DNA from: Anaerolineae bacterium CG2_30_57_67 | Lineage (GTDB): Bacteria; Chloroflexota; Anaerolineae; Anaerolineales; Villigracilaceae | DNA: 64,000 nt | Reading direction: 5' to 3' | Assembly (NCBI GenBank): GCA_001872455.1 | Contig: MNXJ01000071.1 | Location: 55,830 to 119,829, forward strand | Shown: in pieces, positions 8,999 through 61,052 of the stretch | How the letters are laid out: every line of letters begins with the position of its first letter | How positions within the stretch are numbered: the first letter of the stretch is position 1 | The notes under the pieces: model-generated | The model's input: the letters and a program-made list of their open reading frames with translations, nothing else | Told to the model about the DNA's origin: nothing | The model's database searches: none | Position numbers and translations under genes: made by a program

Positions 8999-9070
8999 TA
9001 ACGCCGCCTGTTACACAAAATTCGTTTCGTGCGCTCATTACACCCTAACTCGGACAAGCCGAAAGAGATT

Positions 9071-9153
9071 TGACCACGAAGGCCACGAAGCAACACAAAG
9101 GAAAACCAAAAAACTGCGTGACTCTTTGTGGTTAATTTCCTTGCTTTTTGTGC
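9071..9153. repeat. imperfect palindromic element of the CACGAAG type
   Basis: GACCACGAAGGCCACGAAGC... pairs with ...GCGTGACTCTTTGTGGTTAA. Related to the element at 35377-35433. Confidence 0.5.
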
Positions 9154-9174
9154 AAGAATTTCACTGATACGATA

Positions 9175-12100
9175 CTAAAGATTGTAGACTTTCACTTCTC
9201 CATCAACTTGTAAAAAAAACAGCCGGGTTTTGGGGCAAAAGCCAAGTTGGGCAGTAACAGCGGCGGCATAACGCGCCACTTGATGATCGTACCGTTCGCG
9301 ACGGATGGTGGATTGCGCTTCGGATTCGCTGCGGACATCGTCCGTCTTGAAGTCAATGATGAACCAACCTGCTTCGGTGTGGTAGAGCAAATCCATGATG
9401 CCGCGCTCGTCAGGTAAATCATAGCGGACTTCGTGGTGACGTTCGGCGGAGTCGAGTTCGGCAAAAAGGGGATGTGCGCGCAAGCGTTCCAACAGGCGGC
9501 GGGATTCTTGAATGGCGGCGTAGATTTCTTTGGGGTCGGTCAATCCAGATTCGAGCGCAAAGGGTTTCAGAAAATTATCAAAGTCATCATCGGGGAAATG
9601 CCAGCGGCGGATGGCTTCGTGGACGAGGCGTCCCACCAGCCAGGCGGGGGCGCGCGCGGTCTTGGTTTTCGAGACGATGCGCCAGACGCGCTGGGGTGGG
9701 TCGGATTCGTTGGCGCGGAGTTTCGCATCGCGGTCGGCGAGGGGAATGTTTGGGGCGAGGGGCGGGAGGATATCAGAACTCACCCCCAGCCCCTCTCCCT
9801 TTAGGAGAGGGGAGTCTGTCGAAACAGAATCAGGCTGAGGCGCGGAAGGAACGTCCGCTGGGGAGGAGGAATAGATCGAGGCGGAGATTCCGTCTGGGAG
9901 CAGGAAATGCTCGGGCGTAGACATCTCCACCTGTGCCTGCGGCACTGGCGCAGGCAAAAAAGAGAACTTGGAAAGCCAACCTGAAAGAGAGAACGTGCCG
10001 TCTTTTTTGAGTTTGACGTGACCGCTGACGATGAGTTTTTCTTTGGCACGGGTCGCGGCGACGTAAAGCAGGCGGTTGTCCTCGGCTTCGGCGCGGTCGT
10101 CTTCGAGGCGGGCGGCAAGTTGCCAGGCGGTGGAATGGAAGTCGTCATCGCGCAGATCAAGCAGGAGGTTGTTCGTGAGTTGGATTTTTGCGCCCGCGCC
10201 GCGATGTTCATAAGCCGCGTCAGCCAGGACGGTGAGGGGGAATTCGAGACCTTTGGCTTTGTGAACGGTCATCAGTTGAACGGCACCCGCACTGGCGGAA
10301 TCGGCGGGGGCTTCGCCTTCGCGCAGGCCGACATCACGCAAGGTTTTAACGTAGGCGAGAAAGTCGGTCAGGCTGACGAGGCGCGAGCGGTGCGCGTCGG
10401 CGAGTAATTTTTCCACGTTGCGGATCATGCGCGCGCCGTTTGGGCTAGAGGCGAGGATGGCACGGTAGTGGGTAAGGTCGAGCAGGCGTTTGAGGATAGC
10501 GGCGGCGGGAGCGCGGGAGGACAAATCATGAAGCTCGGTGAGGATGGATAAATTATGAATTAGGAATGATGAATTAGGAATTGAATTACGGAGGCTGTCA
10601 ATAATTTTAGCAGGAGTACTTGATTGATTGGGAAAGCGCAATTTGTAGATTTCCGCGTCGGGAAGAGCGAAGGCGGGGGAGCGGAGCAGGCCGACGAGGG
10701 CGAGGTCATCGGTGGGGTCGGCGATGGCGGTGAGGATGTTGAGCAGGTCGCGGATTTCGGGACGGTCGTAGAAGCCGCGTCCCGCCACGGTGACGAAGGG
10801 AATGTCCGCCGCTTCGAGCGCGTCTTCGTAGACGGGGAAGGCGGTGGAGGAGCGGAAGAGCAAAGCCATGTCGCCCCAGTCAAAGCCTTCGTTTTGATGG
10901 AGTTCGCGCAGACGGCGGGCAAGGGCTTGCGCGGATGCGGCGCGTCCTTCGTCTGCGGATTCTCCCATGCCAAGATGAAATTCGATGAAGGGCGGTTGGA
11001 TGTTTTCGCGTTTTGGATTCTGACGATAGGCGTGCAATGGCGCGAAGGGAACGGCATAGGGACGCGCGGGGTCATCAGTCTCGCCGAGGATGGGAGCCAG
11101 CAGGGAGTTAAGCGAATCGAGCAGAGGTTTGTGCGCGCGGAAGGTCAGGTCGAGGTCAATCAGTTCGCCGCCAGAAGATTGGATGTCGGCTTGAACCTGG
11201 CGGAAGACGGTCACATCGGCGGAGCGAAATTTGTAGATAGATTGTTTGGAGTCGCCCACGATGAAGAGGTCAACCCCCACCATCATCCCCAGCCCTTCTC
11301 CCGAGGGGAGAAGGGAGTCTGCTCCCTCTACCTTAGGGAGAGGGTTTGGGTGAGGGGAAAATCCCGTCAACGCGTAGACGATTTGTCTTTGGCGGTCATT
11401 GGTGTCCTGAAATTCATCCACGAGTACGGCGCGTAATTCAGATTGGAGTTCGGCGCGGACGTTGGGGTACGCCGTCAGTAATTGCGCGGTGAGACCTTCG
11501 AGATCATCGAAGTCGAGGGATTGACGTTCGTTCTTGCGTCGTTGATATTCGAGTTGCGTTTGGTCAAGCAGGCGGTGGATGGCGGGGAGATGCGCGGCCA
11601 GTTGTTCGTCCAGCGCGAAGCGGGATTTCTCGGCGAGGAATTTGAGATGTTCATCGTAAATTTCACGCAAAGCTTTCATCGCGTCGCGGATGGTTTCGAT
11701 ATCAGCATCAGCCCAGTTGCTTTTTTGTCCCTGCGTGGAGATGGCTTTGCGAAGCGCTGTGAGACTCAAAAGAACGGCGTCCCAGCTTTGCGCGGCGCGA
11801 GATTGTTGGATTTCATCCCATTTTACAAGAACGGCTTGGCGAGCAAGTTCAAGTTTGTCTTCGGGAGAGGTTGATTGCAAGGATGCGAGATTGGATAATG
11901 CATCAACCCAAGTTTGAGCATCGAGATACGTGGCAAGATAAGAGGAAAGAGCAAGTTCAAAACTTGTACACGGATTTGACGGATTACGCGGATTCTCACG
12001 GATTTCTTTTTTGTTTTTTCCGTGCAACTCCGTGAAATCCGTGTCATCCGTGTACAAAGATTTTACATCCAACCGACGGCTCATCAACGCGTTGAGAATT

Positions 12101-12633
12101 TGTCGCAATTCGTTTTCTTTGAAGATGCCAAACAGCGCGGAGGATGACTCATCGGTAGAAGCCCACGCCAGCGCTGCCTCAATCGCTTCGGCTTGCAACG
12201 CGGCGGACAGTCCCTCTTCGAGAACTTCAAACTGGGGGTCGAGTCCAGCCTCAGCGGGATGGGAGCGGAGAATTTCGGCGCAGAGGGAGTGGATCGTTCC
12301 AATGCGGGCGGAATCAATATTCTTCATCATCCCCAGCCCTTCCCCCGAAAGGGGAAGGGAGTCATCTGTCCCATCTCCCTTTGGGAGATGGGTAGGGTGA
12401 TGGGAAAGCGCGCTGCGAATCCGCGAGCGCATTTCCCGCGCGGCTTTTTCGGTGAAGGTGATGGCGAGGATGGAGCGGATGAGATAGCCCTGTTCCAGCA
12501 AATGCAAATAACGCCCTACCAGCGAAAGTGTCTTGCCGGAACCCGCGCCCGCCGTGACTGCGATAGCACGCGCCGAATCCGTGACGGCTTGTTGCTGGTT
12601 GCCTTTGAAGGAGAAGTGGGTGAATAAAGTCAT
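9175..12633 (-). CDS. UvrD/AddA-like ATP-dependent helicase with C-terminal PD-(D/E)XK nuclease domain
   Basis: Walker A AGAGSGKT, motif II VDEFQDT, motif III VGDSKQSIYKFRSA, C-terminal IIDFKTD...QVARY nuclease motifs. Carries four in-frame repeat insertions. Confidence 0.85.
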   Translation of the reverse strand: MTLFTHFSFKGNQQQAVTDSARAIAVTAGAGSGKTLSLVGRYLHLLEQGYLIRSILAITFTEKAAREMRSRIRSALSHHPTHLPKGDGTDDSLPLSGEGLGMMKNIDSARIGTIHSLCAEILRSHPAEAGLDPQFEVLEEGLSAALQAEAIEAALAWASTDESSSALFGIFKENELRQILNALMSRRLDVKSLYTDDTDFTELHGKNKKEIRENPRNPSNPCTSFELALSSYLATYLDAQTWVDALSNLASLQSTSPEDKLELARQAVLVKWDEIQQSRAAQSWDAVLLSLTALRKAISTQGQKSNWADADIETIRDAMKALREIYDEHLKFLAEKSRFALDEQLAAHLPAIHRLLDQTQLEYQRRKNERQSLDFDDLEGLTAQLLTAYPNVRAELQSELRAVLVDEFQDTNDRQRQIVYALTGFSPHPNPLPKVEGADSLLPSGEGLGMMVGVDLFIVGDSKQSIYKFRSADVTVFRQVQADIQSSGGELIDLDLTFRAHKPLLDSLNSLLAPILGETDDPARPYAVPFAPLHAYRQNPKRENIQPPFIEFHLGMGESADEGRAASAQALARRLRELHQNEGFDWGDMALLFRSSTAFPVYEDALEAADIPFVTVAGRGFYDRPEIRDLLNILTAIADPTDDLALVGLLRSPAFALPDAEIYKLRFPNQSSTPAKIIDSLRNSIPNSSFLIHNLSILTELHDLSSRAPAAAILKRLLDLTHYRAILASSPNGARMIRNVEKLLADAHRSRLVSLTDFLAYVKTLRDVGLREGEAPADSASAGAVQLMTVHKAKGLEFPLTVLADAAYEHRGAGAKIQLTNNLLLDLRDDDFHSTAWQLAARLEDDRAEAEDNRLLYVAATRAKEKLIVSGHVKLKKDGTFSLSGWLSKFSFLPAPVPQAQVEMSTPEHFLLPDGISASIYSSSPADVPSAPQPDSVSTDSPLLKGEGLGVSSDILPPLAPNIPLADRDAKLRANESDPPQRVWRIVSKTKTARAPAWLVGRLVHEAIRRWHFPDDDFDNFLKPFALESGLTDPKEIYAAIQESRRLLERLRAHPLFAELDSAERHHEVRYDLPDERGIMDLLYHTEAGWFIIDFKTDDVRSESEAQSTIRRERYDHQVARYAAAVTAQLGFCPKTRLFFLQVDGEVKVYNL
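9781..9816 (-). repeat. in-frame half palindromic element (36 nt) inside helicase
   Basis: Hairpin CCCCTCTCC-CTTTA-GGAGAGGGG. Encodes DSPLLKGEGLGV. Confidence 0.7.
11281..11355 (-). repeat. in-frame double-hairpin palindromic element (75 nt) inside helicase
   Basis: Hairpins CCCTTCTCCC-GAG-GGGAGAAGGG and CCCTCT(A)CC-TTA-GGGAGAGGG. Encodes PHPNPLPKVEGADSLLPSGEGLGMM. Confidence 0.75.
11966..12055 (-). repeat. in-frame 90-nt MITE-like element inside helicase
   Basis: Perfect 10-bp terminal inverted repeats GTACACGGAT/ATCCGTGTAC and internal CGGAT/ATCCG repeats. Encodes ...TDDTDFTELHGKNKKEIRENPRNPSNPC... Confidence 0.75.
12325..12402 (-). repeat. in-frame double-hairpin palindromic element (78 nt) inside helicase
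   Basis: Hairpins CCCTTCCCC-GAAA-GGGGAAGGG and CCCATCTCCC-TTTG-GGAGATGGG. Encodes HHPTHLPKGDGTDDSLPLSGEGLGMM. Confidence 0.75.
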
Positions 12634-12667
12634 CAGTCAGTGGGAGAATAAATTCCCCGCCCTCAGT

Positions 12668-12719
12668 CCATGGAAGTCCGCTTCAGCGGACTCGCGCAGT
12701 CAGCCCGCAGGGCTTCCAT
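12668..12719. repeat. small structured repeat (GAAGTCCGC-N4-GCGGAC type), copy 1
   Basis: About 80 percent identical by eye to 26251-26300. Nested stems GTCCGC/GCGGAC and TGGAAG/CTTCCA. Confidence 0.55.
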
Positions 12720-12809
12720 AGCGGCAAGAAGAAAAAGCATTGCCTCAAGAACAATGTATTAGAGTTGTTCCCGAATAGCAAATTTACCGTAATGTACCGC
12801 TTGGAGGAT

Positions 12810-12940
12810 GTCATTGCGAGGAGCGCGCTCTCCGCGGCGACGTGTGCCACGCAGTGGTACGCAATCTCCGATAAAAGGGGGGATTGCTTCGCCACACCTG
12901 CCCTGGCGGGCGGTGTCAGGGAAGTGCGGCTCGTAATGAC
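12810..12940. repeat. 131-nt MITE-like element (GTCATTGCGAG termini)
   Basis: Terminal inverted repeats GTCATTGCGAG / CTCGTAATGAC with 1 mismatch. Internal hairpin GCAATCTCC...GGGGATTGC. Confidence 0.55.
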
Positions 12941-13006
12941 ATTTTTGAGTGGATTTAAGGACAAACAACTATTAGGGAACAGGCCTACTGTTTCGTTAGC
13001 AGTTTC

Positions 13007-13058
13007 GGAGTCCAAAGTCTCCCGACGTTGGCGCCAAAATCTGGAGACTTTGGACTCC
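13007..13058. repeat. perfect 16-bp stem hairpin repeat (GGAGTCCAAAGTCTCC family)
   Basis: GGAGTCCAAAGTCTCC, 20-nt loop, GGAGACTTTGGACTCC. A related copy is at 37519-37572. Confidence 0.65.
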
Positions 13059-13094
13059 TTATCTAAACAGTATTGGTACTACGAGCCACAATTC

Positions 13095-13769
13095 CTATGG
13101 CACAGAAGTGGCGTCTGCGGCCAGAGGTGTTCCGGCGTATAGCGTTGGTCCGTTATCTGGCACGTCAGAGGGACGGCCAAGCGGCATAAGCGGGCGGTTG
13201 ATGCTGGATTGCCCGCCTTGCGCCTGCAGCATTTGGCGCAGGATGGCGTTGTCCCACACGCCGCCGCCGAGGATGTCGTTGCCTTTGGCTTCACCGTTTT
13301 TCCGCTGCGAACCGGCCAGCATCCCAGCGTAACTGCTCAAGTCCATGTTTTGCGTGGCCTTAATCACATCGGCATAGTGGCAGGTGGTGCAGGCGGACGC
13401 GCCGTTGTACCAGATGTTGGCCTCCACAAACAGGCGTTGCACGTCATCGCCAAAAGTGGCAGCGCAGGTGCGGCCTTGCAGGTCAGTAAAATTAAATGGG
13501 TCGGTTTCGGGGCTGCCAGCGCTGACCCACGCGCCAATTAATTCAACCGCAGTAATCTGGCATTTGACCGCGACCGGGGCGGCCCCCGCGCCAACCTGCG
13601 GTACAGGCAAGGTGGCCGCGATGATGGTGGGGATGGGTGTTATCAGCGGTTCGGCAATGCCGGTGCAAGTATTATTGGTTTGGCATCTTGAAAACACTGC
13701 CAGGGGAAAACCCACTGCCAGCATCAGCAAAATACCAAAAGAAATCAGCAAAATGGTTCTCAGTTTCAT
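13095..13769 (-). CDS. membrane-anchored monoheme c-type cytochrome, last gene of the ACIII operon
   Basis: N-terminal TM helix and a single CTTCH heme motif. Starts 13 nt downstream of the actE stop on the same strand. Confidence 0.6.
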   Translation of the reverse strand: MKLRTILLISFGILLMLAVGFPLAVFSRCQTNNTCTGIAEPLITPIPTIIAATLPVPQVGAGAAPVAVKCQITAVELIGAWVSAGSPETDPFNFTDLQGRTCAATFGDDVQRLFVEANIWYNGASACTTCHYADVIKATQNMDLSSYAGMLAGSQRKNGEAKGNDILGGGVWDNAILRQMLQAQGGQSSINRPLMPLGRPSDVPDNGPTLYAGTPLAADATSVP

Positions 13770-21447: not shown

Positions 21448-21474
21448 GTAGCGCAAATCAGAGATTTGCGCCAC
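21448..21474. repeat. REP hairpin unit
   Basis: GTAGCGCAAAT-CAGAG-ATTTGCGCCAC, located between the RAYT stop and the acr3 start. Confidence 0.8.
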
Positions 21475-22142: not shown

Positions 22143-22283
22143 GTAGGGCAAGTCTGTGACTTGCCGCGCAAATTGGAAATTTGCGCCATGTAGCGCAAGT
22201 CTGCGACTTGCGACGCAAATTGGAAATTTGCGCCACGTAGCGCAAGTCTGCGACTTGCGACGCAAATCAGAGATTTGCGCCAC
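22143..22283. repeat. three tandem 47-nt REP doublet units
   Basis: Units at 22143-22189, 22190-22236 and 22237-22283. Each is GTAGCGCAAGTC-N4-GACTTGCG plus GCGCAAATT-GGA-AATTTGCGC. The last unit has the CAGAG loop variant. Confidence 0.9.
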
Positions 22284-24820: not shown

Positions 24821-24867
24821 GTAGCGCAAGTCTCTGACTTGCGGCGCAAATTGGAAATTTGCGCTAC
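24821..24867. repeat. 47-nt REP doublet unit
   Basis: GTAGCGCAAGTCTCTGACTTGCGGCGCAAATTGGAAATTTGCGCTAC. Confidence 0.9.
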
Positions 24868-26550: not shown

Positions 26551-26638
26551 CTAGTGTCGGAACTTTATAAAGTTGTAGGGTAAAAACGGCTGAATTGCGC
26601 CGTTTTTACCCTACAAAATCGGAAAGTTCCGGTACTAG
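26551..26638. repeat. 88-nt three-segment palindrome
   Basis: Core 18-bp perfect stem TTGTAGGGTAAAAACGGC, 8-nt loop, GCCGTTTTTACCCTACAA, extended by CGGAACTTT/AAAGTTCCG and CTAGT/ACTAG. Confidence 0.7.
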
Positions 26639-39093: not shown

Positions 39094-42000
39094 ATGTCCT
39101 TCGTTCACCTGCACACCCACACGGTTTACTCGCTCCTGGATGGTTTTTCCAACATCAAGAAGCTGGTCAAACGCGCCAAAGAAATGGACATGCCCGCGCT
39201 GGCGATTACCGACCACGGCACCATGTTCGGCGTGGTCGAATTCTACAACGCCGCCAAAGAAGCCGGGGTCAAACCCATCATCGGCGTGGAAACTTACATG
39301 GCCGCGCGTGGCATGCAAGACCGCGACTCCAAACTGGATAAAAAGTCCAGCCACCTGCTGCTGCTGGCCGAAAATGAAACCGGCTACAAAAACCTGCTCA
39401 AAATCACCTCCGCCGCGCAAATGGATGGTTTTTACTACTATCCGCGCATTGACCACGACTTTCTGGCGGCGCATTCCGAGGGGCTGATTGCCACCTCGGG
39501 CTGCATGTCCGCCGAAATTCCACGTCATCTGCTGGAGGAAAAACCCGAAGAAGCCGTGCGCCGCATGAACTGGTACTTTGACGTTTTCGGCCCCGACCGC
39601 TTCTACGTGGAATTACAGCAGCACAACATCGCCGAAATGGTGGGGCTCAACCGCCGCCTGGTGGAAATGGGCGCAAAATACTCGGCCAAATTTGTCGCCA
39701 CCAACGATGTTCACTACATCGAACCGGAGGACGCCGATTACCAGGACGTGCTGCTCGCCATTCAGACGGGAAAATTACTCAGCGACCCCGACCGGATGCG
39801 CTACGACAGCAAAACCTTCTACCTGCGCTCCCCGCAGGAGATGAGCCGCCTGTTTGCCGAAATCCCCGAAGCGCTGAGTCACACCCTCGAAATCGCCGAA
39901 CGCTGCAACGTGGACCTCGGTTTCAAGGGCTATCACCTGCCCGAATTCCCCGTCCCGCCCGAGTTTACCGCCGAAACCTACCTGCGCCACCTGTGCGACG
40001 AGGGCCTCGAAAAACGCTACGGCGCGCACAAAACCGACCCGGAAATCTGCGAGCGGCTCGAATTTGAGTTAAACGTCATTCACACGATGGGCTTTGACGC
40101 CTACTTTCTCATCGTGTGGGATTTGTGCCGTCACGCCCGCGAAAATGGCATCTGGTACAACACGCGCGGCTCCGGCGCTGGATCGCTGGTGGCCTATTCG
40201 CTTTTCATCACGCTGGTAGACCCCATCGCGCATCACCTGCTTTTTGAGCGCTTTCTCAATCCCGGGCGCGTTTCCATGCCCGATATTGACCTGGATTTCC
40301 GCGATGACCGCCGCTCCGAAATGCTGGTTTACGCCGCCCAAAAATATGGTGATGACAAAGTGGCGCAAATCATCACCTTCGGCACGATGGCCGCGCGCGG
40401 TGCGCTGCGCGATGTGGCGCGCGTGATGGATATTCCCATCCCCGAAGTGGACAAGATTGCCAAACTTGTCCCCAATATCCCCGGCAAACCCATGTCGCTT
40501 TCCGAAGCGCTCGACCAGGTGCCGGATTTCAAGGCCGCCTACAACAGCGACCCGAAAATCAAAAAGCTGGTGGACACCGCCATTCACATGGAAGGCACCG
40601 TCCGCAACGCCGGCACGCACGCCGCCGGGTTGGTGATTTCGGACAAGCCGATTACCGAGTATCTGCCCATTCACCGGCCAACCTCCGGCTCGGAAGAATC
40701 GCCCGTCAAAACCGTCACCCAGTTTGAGATGGGCATCCTCGACGGCATGGGCATGCTCAAGGTGGATTTCCTCGGCCTTTCCACGCTGACGGTGATGGCG
40801 CGCGCCTGCGGCATGATTAAAGAACACTACGGCAAAGACTACGACCTGAACAACATCCCGCTCGACGACCCGGAAACCTTCAAATTACTCGGCGAAGGCA
40901 AAACGGCGGGCGTCTTCCAATTGGAAGGCACGGGTATGACGCGCTACGTCGTCGAGATGAAACCCAAAAACCTCGACCACATCATCGCCATGGTGGCGCT
41001 CTACCGCCCCGGCCCAATGGATTTCATCCCCAGCTACATCCGCCGCATGCACGGCGAAGAACCGATTGTCTATCGTCACCCCTCGCTGGAGCCAATTTTC
41101 AACGACACCTACGGCATCCCGGTCTACCAGGAACAAATCATGCGCGCGGCAGTGGAAGTCGCCGGCTACAGCCGCTCCGAATCGGACGACCTGCGCAAAG
41201 CCATTTCCAAAAAACAATTTGAGAAAATCGCCAAGCACAAACAAAAATTCATCCACGGCGCGGTAGACAAAGGCGTGATGAACGAAGCCACCGCCACGGC
41301 GATTTTTGAAGACTGGGAACAATTCGCCCGCTACGGCTTCAACAAAAGCCACGCCGCCGATTACGGCCTCGTCTCCGTACAGACCGCCTTTCTGAAAGCG
41401 CACTACCCCGCCGAATACATGAGCGCGCTCATGTCGGTTTTCAAAGACGACAGCGCCAAAGTCTCGCTCTACATCGCCGAAGCGCGCGCCCTCAGCATCG
41501 CCGCGCTGCAGCCCGACGTGAACCATTCCCTGCTGGATTTCAGCATCGAAGACCCGCTGGACGAAAAAGGCCAAAAACATTCTGCCATTCGTTTTGGCAT
41601 GAGCGCCATCAAAAATGTCGGCATCGGCCCGGTGGAATTGATTTTGGCTGGCCGTCGCGTGAACGGAATCGAAAAACCCTTCAGCGACCTGAACGACCTC
41701 GCCCAGCGCGTGGATTTGAAATCCGTCGGCAAGCGCTCGCTCGAATACCTGATCAAGGCCGGAGCGTTGGATTCGTTTGGTGAGCGCGCCGCCCTGCTGG
41801 CCGCCCTCGATCAGTTGGTCGCCGTCAGCGCCGGTCACTTCAAAGCGGTGGACAGCGGCCAGATGTCGCTCTTCGGCGCGGCAACCGGCGTTCAGGCGCA
41901 GAACATCAGCCTCGGCAGCCAGAAAACCGACAAAAAAGAAGCCCTCGCCTGGGAACGCGAATTGATGGGCGTCTATCTTTCCGACCACCCGCTCAAAGCC

Positions 42001-43371
42001 TACGAGGAACTGCTGTTAAGCGGTGTCAGTCACAACTCGCTGACGTTGAGCGAGGCCACCAGCCCCCAACCCTGCCGCGTGGCGGGTTTGGTGGTTTCCT
42101 CGCGCCCCTACAAAACCAAAAAAGATACCATGATGGGTTTCGTGACGCTGGAAGATTTGACCGGCAACATCGAGCTGGTCATTTTCCCGCGCGCCTGGGA
42201 AAAATACCGCGCCCTGTGCGAAGACGGCAAAGTGATTTTGGCGGTTGGCAAAATTGACCCGGCCACCACCCCGCCCAAAGTGCTGGTGGACGAAATTCGC
42301 ACCGATTTCAAGGTCTATTCCTCGGTTAATCAGTTTTCCAGTTCTCCAGTTGACCAGTTATCCAGTTCTTCGGTTAGCCAGTTTTTCAGTTCTCCAGTTG
42401 ACCAGTTATCCAGTTCTCCAGTTAATCAGTTCTCCGGTTATCCAGTTAACCAGTTCTCCAGTTCTCCAGTTAATCAGTTATCCAGTTCTCCAGTTAATCA
42501 GTTTTCCAGTTCCGCCGTCCAACCAGCCAACCGCCCAACCGGACAACCGGACAACCGTCCAACCGGACAACCGGACAACCGGACAACTGCCCAACCGGAT
42601 AACCGCTCAACCGCCCAACCGGACAACCGCCCAACCGCCCAACCGGACAACCGGACAACTGCCCAACCGGATAGCCGCCCAACCGCCCAACCGGACAACT
42701 GCCCAACCGGACAACCGGACAACCGCCCAACCGCCCAACCGGACAACGACTTTACCAACCTGCCGCCCGAACCCGATTTCCCTGACGACTGGGACATGGA
42801 CGTTTCTCCCGCTCCGCTCCGCGCCGCGCCGCCGCCCGCGCCCATGGACGACGCCTTGTACGCCGAAGAACAACAACTGGACAACCGGATAACCGAACAG
42901 CTGGACAACCGAACAACCGAACAACCGGACAACCGAACAACCGAACAACCGGACAACCGGACAACCGAACAACTGGACAACCGGACAACCGAACAACCGG
43001 ACAACCGTCCAACCGGACAACCGGACAACCGGACAACCGAACAACCGAACAACCGCCCGGCCCCACAATTTGATTTTCGCCCCTTGACCCGCGCCGCGCC
43101 CGAACCCGACCTGCCGCCGCGCATGATAACCATTGTCCTGCGTCCCAACGGCGACCCGGAACGCGACCGGCGGCGGCTCAAAAACATCTATTTCATTCTC
43201 ATGTCGCAGCCTGGCAAAGACCGCTTTCAGTTTCAAATTTTTGAAGGCGGCAAAGGTCATCTGATTGATTTTCCCAACGACAGCACGCGCCTGAATGCCG
43301 AACTGCTGACACGCCTGAAAAACCTGACCGGCGACGAAATCTGGCGCATCGAGGACATTAACTACCTGTGA
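39094..43371 (+). CDS. dnaE: DNA polymerase III alpha subunit with a long repeat-encoded insertion near the C-terminus
   Basis: PHP N-terminus FVHLHTHTVYSLLDG, polymerase core, HhH and OB fold (to about residue 1075), low-complexity repeats, then a roughly 100-aa tail. Confidence 0.92.
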   Translation: MSFVHLHTHTVYSLLDGFSNIKKLVKRAKEMDMPALAITDHGTMFGVVEFYNAAKEAGVKPIIGVETYMAARGMQDRDSKLDKKSSHLLLLAENETGYKNLLKITSAAQMDGFYYYPRIDHDFLAAHSEGLIATSGCMSAEIPRHLLEEKPEEAVRRMNWYFDVFGPDRFYVELQQHNIAEMVGLNRRLVEMGAKYSAKFVATNDVHYIEPEDADYQDVLLAIQTGKLLSDPDRMRYDSKTFYLRSPQEMSRLFAEIPEALSHTLEIAERCNVDLGFKGYHLPEFPVPPEFTAETYLRHLCDEGLEKRYGAHKTDPEICERLEFELNVIHTMGFDAYFLIVWDLCRHARENGIWYNTRGSGAGSLVAYSLFITLVDPIAHHLLFERFLNPGRVSMPDIDLDFRDDRRSEMLVYAAQKYGDDKVAQIITFGTMAARGALRDVARVMDIPIPEVDKIAKLVPNIPGKPMSLSEALDQVPDFKAAYNSDPKIKKLVDTAIHMEGTVRNAGTHAAGLVISDKPITEYLPIHRPTSGSEESPVKTVTQFEMGILDGMGMLKVDFLGLSTLTVMARACGMIKEHYGKDYDLNNIPLDDPETFKLLGEGKTAGVFQLEGTGMTRYVVEMKPKNLDHIIAMVALYRPGPMDFIPSYIRRMHGEEPIVYRHPSLEPIFNDTYGIPVYQEQIMRAAVEVAGYSRSESDDLRKAISKKQFEKIAKHKQKFIHGAVDKGVMNEATATAIFEDWEQFARYGFNKSHAADYGLVSVQTAFLKAHYPAEYMSALMSVFKDDSAKVSLYIAEARALSIAALQPDVNHSLLDFSIEDPLDEKGQKHSAIRFGMSAIKNVGIGPVELILAGRRVNGIEKPFSDLNDLAQRVDLKSVGKRSLEYLIKAGALDSFGERAALLAALDQLVAVSAGHFKAVDSGQMSLFGAATGVQAQNISLGSQKTDKKEALAWERELMGVYLSDHPLKAYEELLLSGVSHNSLTLSEATSPQPCRVAGLVVSSRPYKTKKDTMMGFVTLEDLTGNIELVIFPRAWEKYRALCEDGKVILAVGKIDPATTPPKVLVDEIRTDFKVYSSVNQFSSSPVDQLSSSSVSQFFSSPVDQLSSSPVNQFSGYPVNQFSSSPVNQLSSSPVNQFSSSAVQPANRPTGQPDNRPTGQPDNRTTAQPDNRSTAQPDNRPTAQPDNRTTAQPDSRPTAQPDNCPTGQPDNRPTAQPDNDFTNLPPEPDFPDDWDMDVSPAPLRAAPPPAPMDDALYAEEQQLDNRITEQLDNRTTEQPDNRTTEQPDNRTTEQLDNRTTEQPDNRPTGQPDNRTTEQPNNRPAPQFDFRPLTRAAPEPDLPPRMITIVLRPNGDPERDRRRLKNIYFILMSQPGKDRFQFQIFEGGKGHLIDFPNDSTRLNAELLTRLKNLTGDEIWRIEDINYL
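42323..42746 (+). repeat. 53 in-register octanucleotide repeat units inside dnaE
   Basis: 24 units of CAGTTNNC/CGGTTNNC (42323-42514) followed without phase break by 29 units of CCGSMCAA (42515-42746). Confidence 0.9.
42877..43052 (+). repeat. 22 octanucleotide repeat units (CCGRACAA) inside dnaE
   Basis: CTGGACAA CCGGATAA CCGAACAG CTGGACAA CCGAACAA ... counted unit by unit. Confidence 0.9.
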
Positions 43372-61014: not shown

Positions 61015-61052
61015 ATAAAAACAACTTCCGAAGCGCGGGGCTTCGGAAGTTG
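61015..61052 (-). terminator. intrinsic terminator after ileS
   Basis: Minus strand: CAACTTCCGAAGCC-CCGC-GCTTCGGAAGTTG followed by TTTTTAT. Confidence 0.8.

What the first reader, a model, noticed from the sequence alone, without database searches (positions are those of the whole stretch)
9781..12402. Four palindromic repeat elements are inserted in frame in one helicase-nuclease gene, all multiples of 3 nt
The 1152-codon UvrD/AddA-like ORF is uninterrupted although it contains four repeat elements:
- A 78-nt double hairpin (12325-12402, HHPTHLPKGDGTDDSLPLSGEGLGMM).
- A 75-nt paralogue (11281-11355, PHPNPLPKVEGADSLLPSGEGLGMM).
- A 36-nt half element (9781-9816, DSPLLKGEGLGV).
- An unrelated 90-nt element with perfect 10-bp terminal inverted repeats (11966-12055, ...ENPRNPSNP...).

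The 75-nt copy sits between helicase motif II (VDEFQDT) and motif III (VGDSKQSIYKFR), inside the RecA-like core. This resembles Rickettsia palindromic elements, which colonise ORFs and are translated. No neighbouring gene carries one.
Basis: partly seen in the sequence, partly recalled or inferred. Interest (0 to 1): 0.65.

Follow-up and report, generated by a model that had tools for sequence, protein, structure and literature searches.

The report
In-frame palindromic repeats riddling an AddA gene
A DNA-repair helicase-nuclease gene (AddA type) of an uncultured groundwater Anaerolineales bacterium carries at least six short dispersed repeat elements inside its reading frame, and in related bacteria the same loop positions hold other repeat families, so this is a known kind of selfish-DNA decoration with unusually fast turnover.

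Summary
The 1152-codon ORF 9175-12633 (-) is an intact AddA-like helicase-nuclease under purifying selection. All four elements lie at the stated coordinates, in frame and strongly hairpin-forming.

Two more repeat-derived segments exist: 9928-9954 (a 27-nt hairpin insertion, 30-90x depth in the metagenomes) and 10552-10587.

The elements are dispersed repeats. Similar copies with other flanks occur in the same metagenomes, and near-identical copies lie between genes in other genomes. Metatranscriptome contigs run straight through them.

A confident AlphaFold model (pLDDT 82) has low confidence only at elements A, B and C and in the linker that holds D. A sister clade of 119 orthologues carries none of the repeat motifs, against 327 hits in the window's clade, and has short or native sequence at these sites.

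The new point is turnover. In 120 close orthologues the same sites hold at least 10 repeat families, with about 50-60 family changes per site. The partner gene addB is hit too.

Verdict: a REP/MITE/RPE-like in-frame colonisation of permissive loops. This kind is known, and intragenic REPs in recB/uvrD-type repair genes were reported in 2013. It is seen here in Chloroflexota with extreme same-site turnover. Translation and the turnover mechanism are inferred, not shown.

The parts
9175..12633 (-). AddA-like SF1 helicase-nuclease gene, 1152 codons, the host of all the elements
   Evidence: ORF. Pfam UvrD-helicase 6.5e-58, UvrD_C 4.8e-30, PDDEXK_1 6.5e-7. Foldseek best match is AddA 4CEJ_A, E 4e-46. 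pN/pS 0.31-0.44 against six orthologues.
12325..12402 (-). Element A: 78-nt double hairpin of family 1 (HHPTHLPKGDGTDDSLPLSGEGLGMM, aa 78-103), between helicase motifs Ia and Ib
   Evidence: Fold -47 kcal/mol, z -5.7. The PcrA alignment has a 5-residue loop here. pLDDT about 51. An RNA contig spans 12307-12581. Depth is 3-7x with foreign flanks.
11965..12057 (-). Element C: 90-94-nt palindrome with 10-13-bp terminal inverted repeats built of CGGAT modules (LYTDDTDFTELHGKNKKEIRENPRNPSNPCT, aa 193-223), in domain 1B
   Evidence: z -8.4. pLDDT 48-50. 91% nt identity to the L001 copy, against 74-79% in the flanks. Other copies with foreign flanks exist.
11281..11355 (-). Element B: 75-nt double hairpin of family 1 (PHPNPLPKVEGADSLLPSGEGLGMM, aa 427-451), between helicase motifs II and III
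   Evidence: z -2.5. The site is a 4-6-residue loop in distant orthologues and in PcrA. pLDDT 41-48. An RNA contig spans 11167-11547.
10552..10587 (-).
   Evidence: Ortholog segments at this site hold at least five repeat families and span 48-103 aa in the 70 listed. An RNA-run contig matches 10551-10582 with foreign flanks. It is modelled as part of a helix with good confidence, so here it is integrated into the fold.
9928..9956 (-).
   Evidence: Column occupancy 0.16 among 120 orthologues. Depth is 506-632 against 15 and 7 in two DNA runs, carried by 31-nt unitigs. Fold z -2.0.
9781..9816 (-). Element D: 36-nt single family-1 hairpin plus tail (DSPLLKGEGLGV, aa 940-951), in the linker between the helicase and nuclease domains
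   Evidence: It is present or absent among orthologues: about 30 of 120 carry it, and some carry it in tandem. It lies in a disordered linker with pLDDT 29-41. An RNA contig spans 9545-9967.

Best explanation
The gene encodes a working AddA-type helicase-nuclease, the helicase subunit of an AddAB double-strand-break repair enzyme. At least six of its surface loops or linkers are built from short dispersed DNA repeats of the REP/MITE kind, most of them palindromic.

**Proposed sequence of events.**
1. Repeat copies land in, or are copied into, the gene.
2. Only copies that keep the frame, have no stop codon and sit in structurally permissive loops survive selection.
3. They are then transcribed and translated as extra, mostly disordered peptide.

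The permissive positions are:
- between motifs Ia and Ib;
- in domain 1B;
- between motifs II and III;
- in domain 2B;
- in the helicase-nuclease linker.

**Turnover.** In this Anaerolineales clade the same loops have been overwritten again and again by different repeat families. I think this most likely happens by new elements inserting into or next to the resident palindrome, followed by deletion, and by gene conversion from other genomic copies. Each species therefore has its own set of cassettes, while the catalytic core stays conserved.

**What is shown.** The presence, palindromy, dispersal, lineage specificity and loop location of the elements, their retention in RNA, purifying selection on the gene, and same-site family turnover.

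**What is inferred.** Translation, selective neutrality, and the molecular mechanism of insertion and turnover.
For: - **Anatomy and palindromy.**
- **Dispersed copies.** Element bins have 3-8x depth at 90% likeness or more, and contigs run on into foreign flanks at the element borders. Element E has 30-90x depth. Orphan 40-60-aa ORFs encode the same double element. They lie in short spacers between a histidine kinase and a response regulator, and between urea carboxylase and amidase genes. Their DNA is near-identical to the right halves of A and B.
- **Lineage specificity.** There are 327 repeat-motif hits in 120 orthologues of the window's clade and 0 in 119 of a more divergent sister clade. 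Site-length SD is 2.9-11.3 aa in the window's clade and 0.8-2.7 aa in the sister clade. Distant orthologues have a 4-5-residue loop at B and native helical sequence at A and C.
- **Loops.** The model has pLDDT 81.9 and pTM 0.72. Its only segments below 50 are aa 88-92, 195-204, 214-218, 430-452 and 930-988, which correspond to A, C, B and the linker that holds D. The PcrA alignment breaks exactly at A and B.
- **Functional gene.** pN/pS is 0.31-0.44, and the fold matches AddA.
- **RNA.** Metatranscriptome contigs are colinear through D, B, C and A, and no joints appear in the RNA runs.
- **Peptide is a by-product of the DNA.** The same DNA family is read in other frames in addB genes (SPSPVLGRGA, LPLSQFLGEGE).
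- **Turnover.** Seven to ten states per site at A, B and C. Fitch changes are 55, 63, 51 and 28 at A, B, C and D, against 69, 80, 67 and 38 for shuffled labels. Compound and nested forms occur, such as GEGSG-RRTEPVEV-VR.
- **Young or homogenised elements.** Element C is 87% identical at third codon positions between the window and L001, against 56-62% in the flanks. The GLGMM tail occurs only in the window protein, at both A and B.
- **Precedent.** Intragenic REPs concentrated in repair genes, including recB and uvrD-type helicases, with different REPs at about the same recB site in two Xanthomonas species (PMC3733652). RPEs in Rickettsia (PMC10969869).
Against: - No extragenic copy of family 1 or of the C type lies in the 64-kb window. 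Their copy number in the metagenome looks modest, at 3-8x, so they are not shown to be classic high-copy REPs in this genome.
- No transposase, target-site duplication or GTAG/CGTC tag was found.
- Translation of the inserts is not observed directly, and the RNA contigs could include carried-over DNA.
- No empty state was seen at sites A and B in any of the 120 close orthologues, and C (about a quarter unclassified, some apparently native) and F are mostly filled. The elements are also enriched in addA and addB: 11 of 25 perfect hairpins of 10 bp or more lie in about 27% of 200 kb. A pure 'tolerated junk' model does not predict either point, and both might reflect selection or targeting.
- Some occupant families are direct repeats with little predicted structure (L001 site A -3.8, L004 site A -0.1 kcal/mol).
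- The NJ tree used for the turnover counts may be poorly resolved, which would inflate them.
Confidence: 0.72

Rival explanations
1. The hairpins are kept by selection as nucleic-acid signals inside the coding region. They could be mRNA structures that pause ribosomes between domains or set mRNA half-life. They could also be DNA structures that feed back on expression of the very enzyme that processes broken or hairpin DNA. On this view any strong palindrome will do, which would explain why families can replace each other.
For: - Sites A and B hold some repeat in every one of the 120 close orthologues, whatever the family; C and F are mostly filled.
- The structures in the window are very stable, at -47 and -41 kcal/mol with z -5.7 and -8.4.
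- Both addA and addB are hit in relatives.
- Repair genes are preferred hosts in other phyla (PMC3733652).
Against: - Several occupants at the same sites have almost no predicted structure (-0.1 to -4 kcal/mol).
- Sites D and E are present or absent among orthologues.
- The sister clade works without any such element.
- No Rfam family matches.
- Full occupancy is also explained by a ratchet, because the native segment was destroyed and precise excision is rare.
Confidence: 0.1
2. The inserted peptides have been taken over for protein function. They could serve as flexible spacers of a required minimum length that replace lost native helices at A and C, or as interaction surfaces. Selection would then act on length and disorder, not on sequence.
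For: - At A and C the elements stand where distant orthologues have native segments of about 20 residues, and total span is similar.
- Site C always keeps at least about 14 residues, and the 14-aa family-1 unit equals the 14-aa apparently native form TADVTSNLAASLVE.
- Element F is modelled as a confident helix.
Against: - At B the ancestral state is a 4-5-residue loop, so 25 extra residues are not needed.
- Lengths vary widely, with SD up to 11 aa.
- The same DNA is read in different frames elsewhere.
- Peptide sequence is not conserved across families.
Confidence: 0.12
3. The elements are not translated. They would be removed from the mRNA or skipped by the ribosome, like the byp elements of yeast mitochondria or T4 gene 60, or cut out of the protein like inteins.
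For: The inserts are strong hairpins of 27-90 nt inside a conserved gene, which superficially resembles bypass elements (my own knowledge of Lang et al. 2014, not checked here). One orthologue, P0008, does carry a true intein, but in motif III.
Against: - Every element in the window is a multiple of 3 and free of stops. So are the hundreds of elements in the full-length orthologues and in the loci found by tblastn, apart from one deletion and one frameshift case. Untranslated inserts would not be under that constraint.
- RNA contigs are colinear and show no joints.
- There are no intein motifs.
Confidence: 0.03
4. The segments are not mobile or copied DNA at all. They would be low-complexity linkers that evolved in place by slippage and converged on similar sequences.
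For: Some occupants (HPSSF, ITNYQ/ENRKS, and element F) are short tandem direct repeats that slippage could generate.
Against: - Near-identical DNA, in 30-nt blocks that include the GGGCTGGGGATG tail, lies in unrelated intergenic spacers of other genomes.
- Foreign-flank copies occur in the same metagenome.
- Element C is far better conserved than the synonymous sites around it.
Confidence: 0.03

Closest known systems
Intragenic REP elements in DNA-repair genes (Di Nocera et al. 2013, BMC Genomics 14:522, PMC3733652)
   Same: Short palindromic repeats, single or as inverted dimers encoding 20-30 residues, lie in frame inside genes for RecBCD, UvrD/Rep helicases, UvrABC and DnaE. Sometimes these are the only coding sequences hit in a genome. 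Different REPs lie at about the same recB site in two Xanthomonas species.
   Different: - Those REPs carry GTAG or CGTC tags, which family 1 and the C type lack.
- The hosts were mainly Proteobacteria, Opitutus and Rickettsia, whereas this is Anaerolineales (Chloroflexota).
- That paper reports only one comparison of REPs lying at about the same site, two Xanthomonas recB genes. It has no counterpart to six sites in one gene, ten or more families, or about 50-60 family changes per site.
Rickettsia palindromic elements (RPE; Ogata et al. 2000, 2002; summarised in PMC10969869)
   Same: Palindromic dispersed repeats are inserted in frame in conserved genes. They are believed to be translated and lie at positions compatible with the protein fold.
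   Different: - RPE-1 is about 100-150 bp, and the host is an obligate intracellular alphaproteobacterium.
- No sequence relationship was tested or is expected.
- In the accounts I read, RPE insertions are not reported as recurrent replacement by other families at one site.
MITEs that create in-frame fusions (intragenic ERIC elements, Delihas 2007/2011; cyanobacterial MITEs)
   Same: Element C has perfect terminal inverted repeats, is about 90 nt long, has an open frame, and has dispersed copies.
   Different: No target-site duplication or parent insertion sequence was identified. Element C is built of tandem CGGAT modules.
Translational bypass (byp) elements of Magnusiomyces mitochondria
   Same: GC-rich hairpin-forming mobile inserts lie in coding regions and stay in the mRNA.
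   Different: Byp elements break the frame and are skipped by the ribosome. Here every insert keeps the frame and lacks stops, which points to translation. The comparison rests on my own knowledge.

Membership tests
AddA (helicase-nuclease subunit A of AddAB) | SF1 UvrD-like helicase core with motifs I, II and III | tested here: met
   Pfam UvrD-helicase 6.5e-58 and UvrD_C 4.8e-30. GAGSGKT, VDEFQDT and VGDSKQSIYKFR located.
AddA (helicase-nuclease subunit A of AddAB) | C-terminal PD-(D/E)XK (RecB-type) nuclease domain | tested here: met
   PF12705 at aa 993-1143, E 6.5e-7, above the cut-off.
AddA (helicase-nuclease subunit A of AddAB) | Overall fold like solved AddA | tested here: met
   Foldseek top hits are 4CEJ_A, 4CEI_A and 3U44_A, E 4e-46 to 5e-41, TM 0.53. 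RecB comes next.
AddA (helicase-nuclease subunit A of AddAB) | Curated equivalog score (NCBIfam TIGR02785/TIGR02784) | tested here: not met
   312.8 bits against a cut-off of 707.65, and 249.8 against 860.75. It is therefore AddA-like, not the Firmicutes or alphaproteobacterial equivalog.
AddA (helicase-nuclease subunit A of AddAB) | Adjacent addB partner gene | tested here: not met
   No addB lies anywhere in the 64-kb window (tblastn). In relatives L001, L006 and L023 an ADDB_N + PD-(D/E)XK gene lies directly upstream.
REP / REPIN elements | Short (20-40 nt) imperfect palindrome, often as an inverted pair | tested here: met
   Family-1 units have 10-bp stems with 3-nt loops. A and B are inverted pairs with complementary outer arms.
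REP / REPIN elements | Many dispersed, mostly extragenic copies in the same genome | tested here: inconclusive
   There are no extragenic family-1 copies in the 64-kb window. Depth is 3-8x with foreign flanks in the metagenome, and stand-alone intergenic copies occur in other genomes. The whole genome is not available.
REP / REPIN elements | GTAG or CGTC terminal tag (the two superfamilies of PMC3733652) | tested here: not met
   The unit reads GACTCCCCTCTCC...GGGGCTGGGGGTG and has neither tag at either end.
REP / REPIN elements | Associated RAYT tyrosine transposase | not tested
   The window's ORFs were not all scanned, and a 64-kb window cannot exclude one.
Rickettsia palindromic elements | Palindromic dispersed repeat inserted in frame in conserved genes, at fold-compatible positions | tested here: met
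Rickettsia palindromic elements | Sequence membership in RPE-1 to RPE-10 and a Rickettsia host | not tested
   No RPE consensus was compared. The host is Anaerolineales, so membership is not claimed, only the same way of working.
Rickettsia palindromic elements | Insert peptide present in the mature protein | not testable with these tools
   This needs proteomics. The indirect support is frame conservation and colinear RNA.
MITE | Terminal inverted repeats, 70-300 bp, non-coding for a transposase | tested here: met
   Element C has perfect TIRs of 10 bp (12-13 bp with one more base pair each side) and is 90-94 nt long.
MITE | Target-site duplication and a parent IS with the same TIRs | tested here: inconclusive
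   No obvious duplication flanks 11964-12057 by reading. No parent element was searched for.
Introns / inteins / bypass elements | Removed from RNA or protein, so not constrained to keep the frame | tested here: not met
   All inserts keep the frame in the window and in the full-length orthologues. RNA contigs are colinear.

The most novel reading that the evidence does not exclude
addA and addB are true hot spots, not merely tolerant genes. On this reading REP-like elements of many families home in on a resident palindrome, or are copied into breaks that the palindrome provokes. A few fixed codon positions then behave as swappable in-frame cassettes.

The link to the enzyme that processes such breaks would be causal, a feedback between hairpin-induced double-strand breaks and the AddAB repair machinery. 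That would explain why repair helicase-nucleases are the preferred intragenic hosts of palindromic repeats across phyla.
Probability: 0.2. Interest if true: 0.75.

Novelty: new variant of a known kind. Interest (0 to 1): 0.55.

Why it matters
In-frame colonisation of genes by palindromic repeats is an accepted curiosity. It is documented mainly in Rickettsia and for a few REPs in Proteobacteria.

This case extends it to uncultured Chloroflexota. It also offers a natural experiment of unusual size. There are 120 orthologues with six defined loop positions and ten or more repeat families swapping places. A sister clade of 119 orthologues with none serves as control.

That makes three open questions testable:
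- How do such elements choose or reuse their targets?
- How fast can proteins acquire and exchange disordered loops from selfish DNA?
- Why are DNA-repair helicase-nucleases hit so often?

There is also a practical point. These cassettes inflate alignments and generate thousands of spurious 'hypothetical proteins' in metagenome annotation.

Tried and rejected
- **Profile search with the 28-aa element peptide.** A doubled profile returned only orphan ORFs under 100 aa. That shows stand-alone copies exist, but it cannot measure enrichment in large proteins.
- **Exhaustive search with 30 aa of element B.** It gave 13 hits, and the four long ones scanned have Ig/PKD-like or unrelated domains and look composition-driven. 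Not informative.
- **Rfam.** Only sub-threshold miRNA-like hairpin hits.
- **Metagenome locus scan.** DNA-level comparison therefore rests on nine close loci.
- **First AlphaFold run.** With 32 close sequences it was too poor to use (pLDDT 53). I replaced it with a 148-sequence alignment.
- **Site D.** My regular expression misfired and the output there is meaningless. Site D was redone.
- **DNA alignment of filled and empty site D.** It does not show clean insertion borders, so no target site could be defined.
- **DNA 'joints' 9799>12370 and 11357>12370.** They have only 21-22 nt on one side. I take them to be other element copies or graph artefacts, not deletions.
- **Pseudogene, intron/intein/bypass and in-situ slippage readings.** All were considered and rejected, as set out under the rival explanations.

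Full report
**1. What is in the sequence**

The ORF 9175..12633 on the minus strand is uninterrupted and 1152 codons long. It has UvrD-helicase, UvrD_C and C-terminal PD-(D/E)XK domains. It scores as AddA/RecB-like but below NCBIfam equivalog cut-offs.

| Element | Coordinates | Length | Position in protein | Nature |
|---|---|---|---|---|
| A | 12325-12402 | 78 nt | aa 78-103 | family-1 double hairpin |
| B | 11281-11355 | 75 nt | aa 427-451 | family-1 double hairpin |
| D | 9781-9816 | 36 nt | aa 940-951 | family-1 single hairpin |
| C | 11966-12055 | 90 nt | aa 193-223 | palindrome with perfect 10-bp terminal inverted repeats, built of CGGAT modules |

A, B and D share one hairpin-plus-tail unit (CCYTCYCC-loop-GGRGARGG-CTGGGG). 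A and B are inverted pairs of that unit and are 90% identical over 39 nt.

Folding against dinucleotide shuffles gives z = -5.7 (A), -8.4 (C), -2.5 (B) and -1.6 (D). Two control stretches of the same gene give +0.3 and +0.9.

In the whole 64-kb window the family-1 motif and the pyrimidine-stem hairpins occur only in this gene. No other long ORF carries any of the repeat peptides. Independent assemblies of three DNA runs cover the elements colinearly, so they are not assembly artefacts.

**2.

- **Element E, 9928-9954.** This is a 27-nt insertion (PAPVPQAQV) that 84% of orthologues lack. It contains the hairpin TGCCTGCG-N7-CGCAGGCA. In two DNA runs its 29 nt have a depth of 506-632, against 15 and 7 for the surrounding gene, carried by 31-nt unitigs. 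That is the signature of a high-copy repeat.
- **Element F, 10552-10587.** This AT-rich tandem segment (NSIPNSSFLIHN) lies at a position where orthologues hold at least five other repeat families and span 48-103 residues in the 70 listed. A contig of an RNA run matches 10551-10582 with foreign flanks.

About 10% of the protein is therefore repeat-derived.

**3. Source and gene status**

The sequence is held by aquifer and groundwater metagenomes. The closest proteins are from Chloroflexi/Anaerolineales MAGs at 62-76% identity.

Against six orthologues pN/pS is 0.31-0.44, with pS near saturation, so the gene is under purifying selection. A 148-sequence AlphaFold model (pLDDT 81.9, pTM 0.72) matches AddA of the B. 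subtilis AddAB complex best (4CEJ_A, E 4e-46), followed by RecB.

In relatives an addB gene (ADDB_N + PD-(D/E)XK) lies directly upstream. The window has no addB at all.

**4. Are they dispersed repeats?**

Yes.
- At 90% likeness or more, the bins holding A, B and C have 3-8 times the depth of the gene. Contigs run from the element borders into unrelated sequence.
- A profile of the double element finds hundreds of orphan 40-100-aa 'hypothetical proteins' that consist of little else.
- Two of these that I looked up lie in short spacers between co-directional genes: histidine kinase and response regulator, and urea carboxylase and amidase.
- Their DNA matches the right halves of A and B almost base for base, including the GGGCTGGGGATG tail.
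- The window itself has palindromes of other families in intergenic DNA. These include 9043-9179 directly downstream of the gene, at about 15x depth, and 13007-13058 upstream. The latter belongs to a family that sits inside addA in other species (DSKVSRLS..ETLDS).

**5. Are they lineage-specific insertions in loops?**

Yes, with a twist.

- **More distant Anaerolineae orthologues (36-49% identity).** They have a 4-5-residue loop at B (..ALxG-xxGK-LFIVGD). At A and C they have unrelated, conserved, helical native segments.
- **Sister clade.** It comprises 119 orthologues and is more divergent in its core than the window's clade (0.65 against 0.75 mean identity). It has 0 hits to eleven repeat-peptide motifs, against 327 in the window's clade. 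Its length at the six sites is nearly constant, with SD 0.8-2.7 aa against 2.9-11.3.
- **PcrA alignment.** Alignment to PcrA (1PJR) breaks exactly at A (5 residues in PcrA against 31 here) and at B (6 against 33).
- **AlphaFold model.** The only segments with pLDDT below 50 are aa 88-92 (A), 195-204 and 214-218 (C), 430-452 (B) and 930-988 (the linker with D). F is modelled as a confident helix, and E lies in blocks scoring 63-73.

The twist is that at A and C the elements stand in place of a lost native segment rather than being pure additions.

**6. Same sites, different families**

Between tight anchors, each of the 120 close orthologues has some repeat-like peptide. The anchors are SRIRxAL / IDSARIG, RRLDV / FxxxLSSYL, and ALTGF / VDLFIVGD.

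The families differ. They include PLPxGEGxGVR, HPSSFILHPS, ERSTFNVQ, ELTAKxAKxAKE..LSVLRGS, NSEFxIQNS, ITNYQSP, IENRKSEIVN, DSKVSRLS..ETLDS, ESASADFHELRQGF, NGTRTSAENAE..IRVNPR, GRRTEPVEVVR, and the window's C type.

On the DNA I could fetch, most of these are strong palindromes, for example -55 kcal/mol at site B of L004. Some are direct repeats with little structure.

Site D is present or absent: about 30 of 120 orthologues carry family 1, and some carry it in tandem.

On an NJ tree of 1015 core columns the family label changes many times.

| Site | Fitch changes | Shuffled labels | Nearest neighbour shares the family |
|---|---|---|---|
| A | 55 | 69 | 48 of 120 |
| B | 63 | 80 | 43 of 120 |
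| C | 51 | 67 | 66 of 120 |
| D | 28 | 38 | 86 of 120 |

The window's seven nearest relatives all differ from it at A and B. Compound and nested forms are common, such as GEGSG-RRTEPVEV-VR and ITNYQSP+IENRKSEIVN.

The counts depend on rough regular-expression classes and on a tree that may be poorly resolved. I treat them as an order of magnitude.

**7. The elements are younger than the gene or are homogenised**

Element C is 91% identical between the window and L001, and 87% at third codon positions. The flanking gene is 74-79% identical, and 56-62% at third positions.

The tail GLGMM occurs at both A and B of the window protein and in none of the other 119 orthologues. This points to a genome-specific subfamily or to conversion between the two sites.

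**8. The partner gene is hit too**

In about 200 kb of close-clade DNA there are 25 perfect hairpins with stems of 10 bp or more:
- 8 in addA (14% of the DNA);
- 3 in the 1027-1094-codon ORFs just upstream of addA, where addB lies (Pfam-confirmed only for L001);
- 7 in intergenic DNA;
- 7 in other open frames of 150-332 codons.

Family-1 units in addB are read in other frames (SPSPVLGRGA, LPLSQFLGEGE). The peptide is therefore a by-product of the DNA.

**9. Are they translated?**

This is not shown directly. Three lines support it:
- Metatranscriptome contigs cover D (9545-9967), B (11167-11547), C (11813-12338) and A (12307-12581) without gaps or joints. DNA carry-over cannot be excluded.
- Every element in the window and in the full-length orthologues keeps the frame and lacks stops. 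Among the tblastn-found loci, only L014 (an internal deletion) and L030 (a frameshift) are broken.
- There is no intein signature.

**10. Comparison with what is known**

The closest description is by Di Nocera et al. 2013 (PMC3733652):
- REPs inside genes are concentrated in replication and repair genes (UvrABC, UvrD/Rep helicase, Pol I, RecBCD, DnaE/DnaE2).
- They are often dimers encoding 20-30 residues.
- Sometimes these are the only coding sequences hit in a genome.
- Different REPs lie at about the same recB site in two Xanthomonas species.

RPEs of Rickettsia are the classic case of in-frame, fold-compatible palindromic inserts (PMC10969869).

The present elements lack the GTAG/CGTC tags, have no known transposase, and are in another phylum. 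I therefore file them as working like REP/RPE/MITE inserts, not as members of those families. Full-text searches for the characteristic peptides and for Anaerolineae plus palindromic insertions found nothing relevant.

**11. Verdict**

The thing itself is a known kind.

What goes beyond the known is the scale and the same-site multi-family turnover, with a clean repeat-free sister clade as control. The mechanism of turnover is inferred from compound forms and from the youth of the elements, not demonstrated. It could be nested insertion into the resident palindrome followed by deletion, or gene conversion from other copies.

A functional role of the hairpins or peptides cannot be excluded. It is not needed to explain the data.

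Noticed in passing
window 9043-9179: An intergenic repeat lies directly downstream of the addA stop codon (ACCACGAAGGCCACGAAG...CTTTGTGGT, the 'HEGHE/TAKxAK' family). Depth in the DNA runs reaches about 210-245, against about 15 for the gene, and many contigs with different flanks join at 9042/9043 and 9179/9182. A variant lacking 67 nt (9064>9132) is also abundant.
   Followed up: partly
window 13007-13058: A 26+26-nt perfect-register palindrome (GGAGTCCAAAGTCTCC...GGAGACTTTGGACTCC) lies about 375 nt upstream of the addA start. The same family (DSKVSRLS..ETLDS) sits in frame at site B of addA in about 12 orthologues.
   Followed up: partly
window 12634-13100 and whole window: addA has no adjacent addB, and no addB occurs anywhere in the 64 kb. 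In relatives (L001, L006, L023) a Pfam-confirmed addB lies directly upstream, and L005 and L081 have addB-sized ORFs there. There is also almost no synteny with those loci.
   Followed up: partly
P0008 (orthologue, 1518 aa): One orthologue carries a true intein (PF14890) inserted after GDSKQ in helicase motif III, a few residues downstream of cassette site B.
   Followed up: no
L014 308-2002; L030 453-3819: Two related MAG loci have a broken addA. L014 lacks residues 547-1090 (internal deletion or misassembly). L030 has a frameshift near residue 560-574.
   Followed up: partly
window 39094-43371: The DnaE gene is unusually long at 1425 aa, with about 350 residues after the OB domain that Pfam does not cover. 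No repeat peptide or strong hairpin was found in it.
   Followed up: no
window 22166-22233, 24821-24867, 21452-21466: Copies of another small palindrome family (GCGCAAATTGGAAATTTGCG, read as ..RKSEICA..) lie around the ArsA-like gene.
   Followed up: no
window 26551-26638 and 61024-61050: There is a 40-nt-arm inverted repeat at 26551-26638. A hairpin ACTTCCGAAG-N7-CTTCGGAAGT lies at 61024-61050. The latter's CTTCCGAAG motif also occurs in frame in the addB-sized ORF of L081 and at site C of addA in L004.
   Followed up: no
P0253, P0254 (sister clade), site C: Even in the repeat-free sister clade a few orthologues have an 8-residue insertion (GSTELAEV) at site C. It resembles the small nested RRTEPVEV unit of the window's clade.
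   Followed up: no
window 9799>12370 and 11357>12370 (DNA runs X1, X4): Contigs join one family-1 hairpin to another across 1.0-2.6 kb, with only 21-22 nt on the short side. These are probably other element copies or assembly-graph artefacts. Recombination between the elements inside the gene is not excluded.
   Followed up: no
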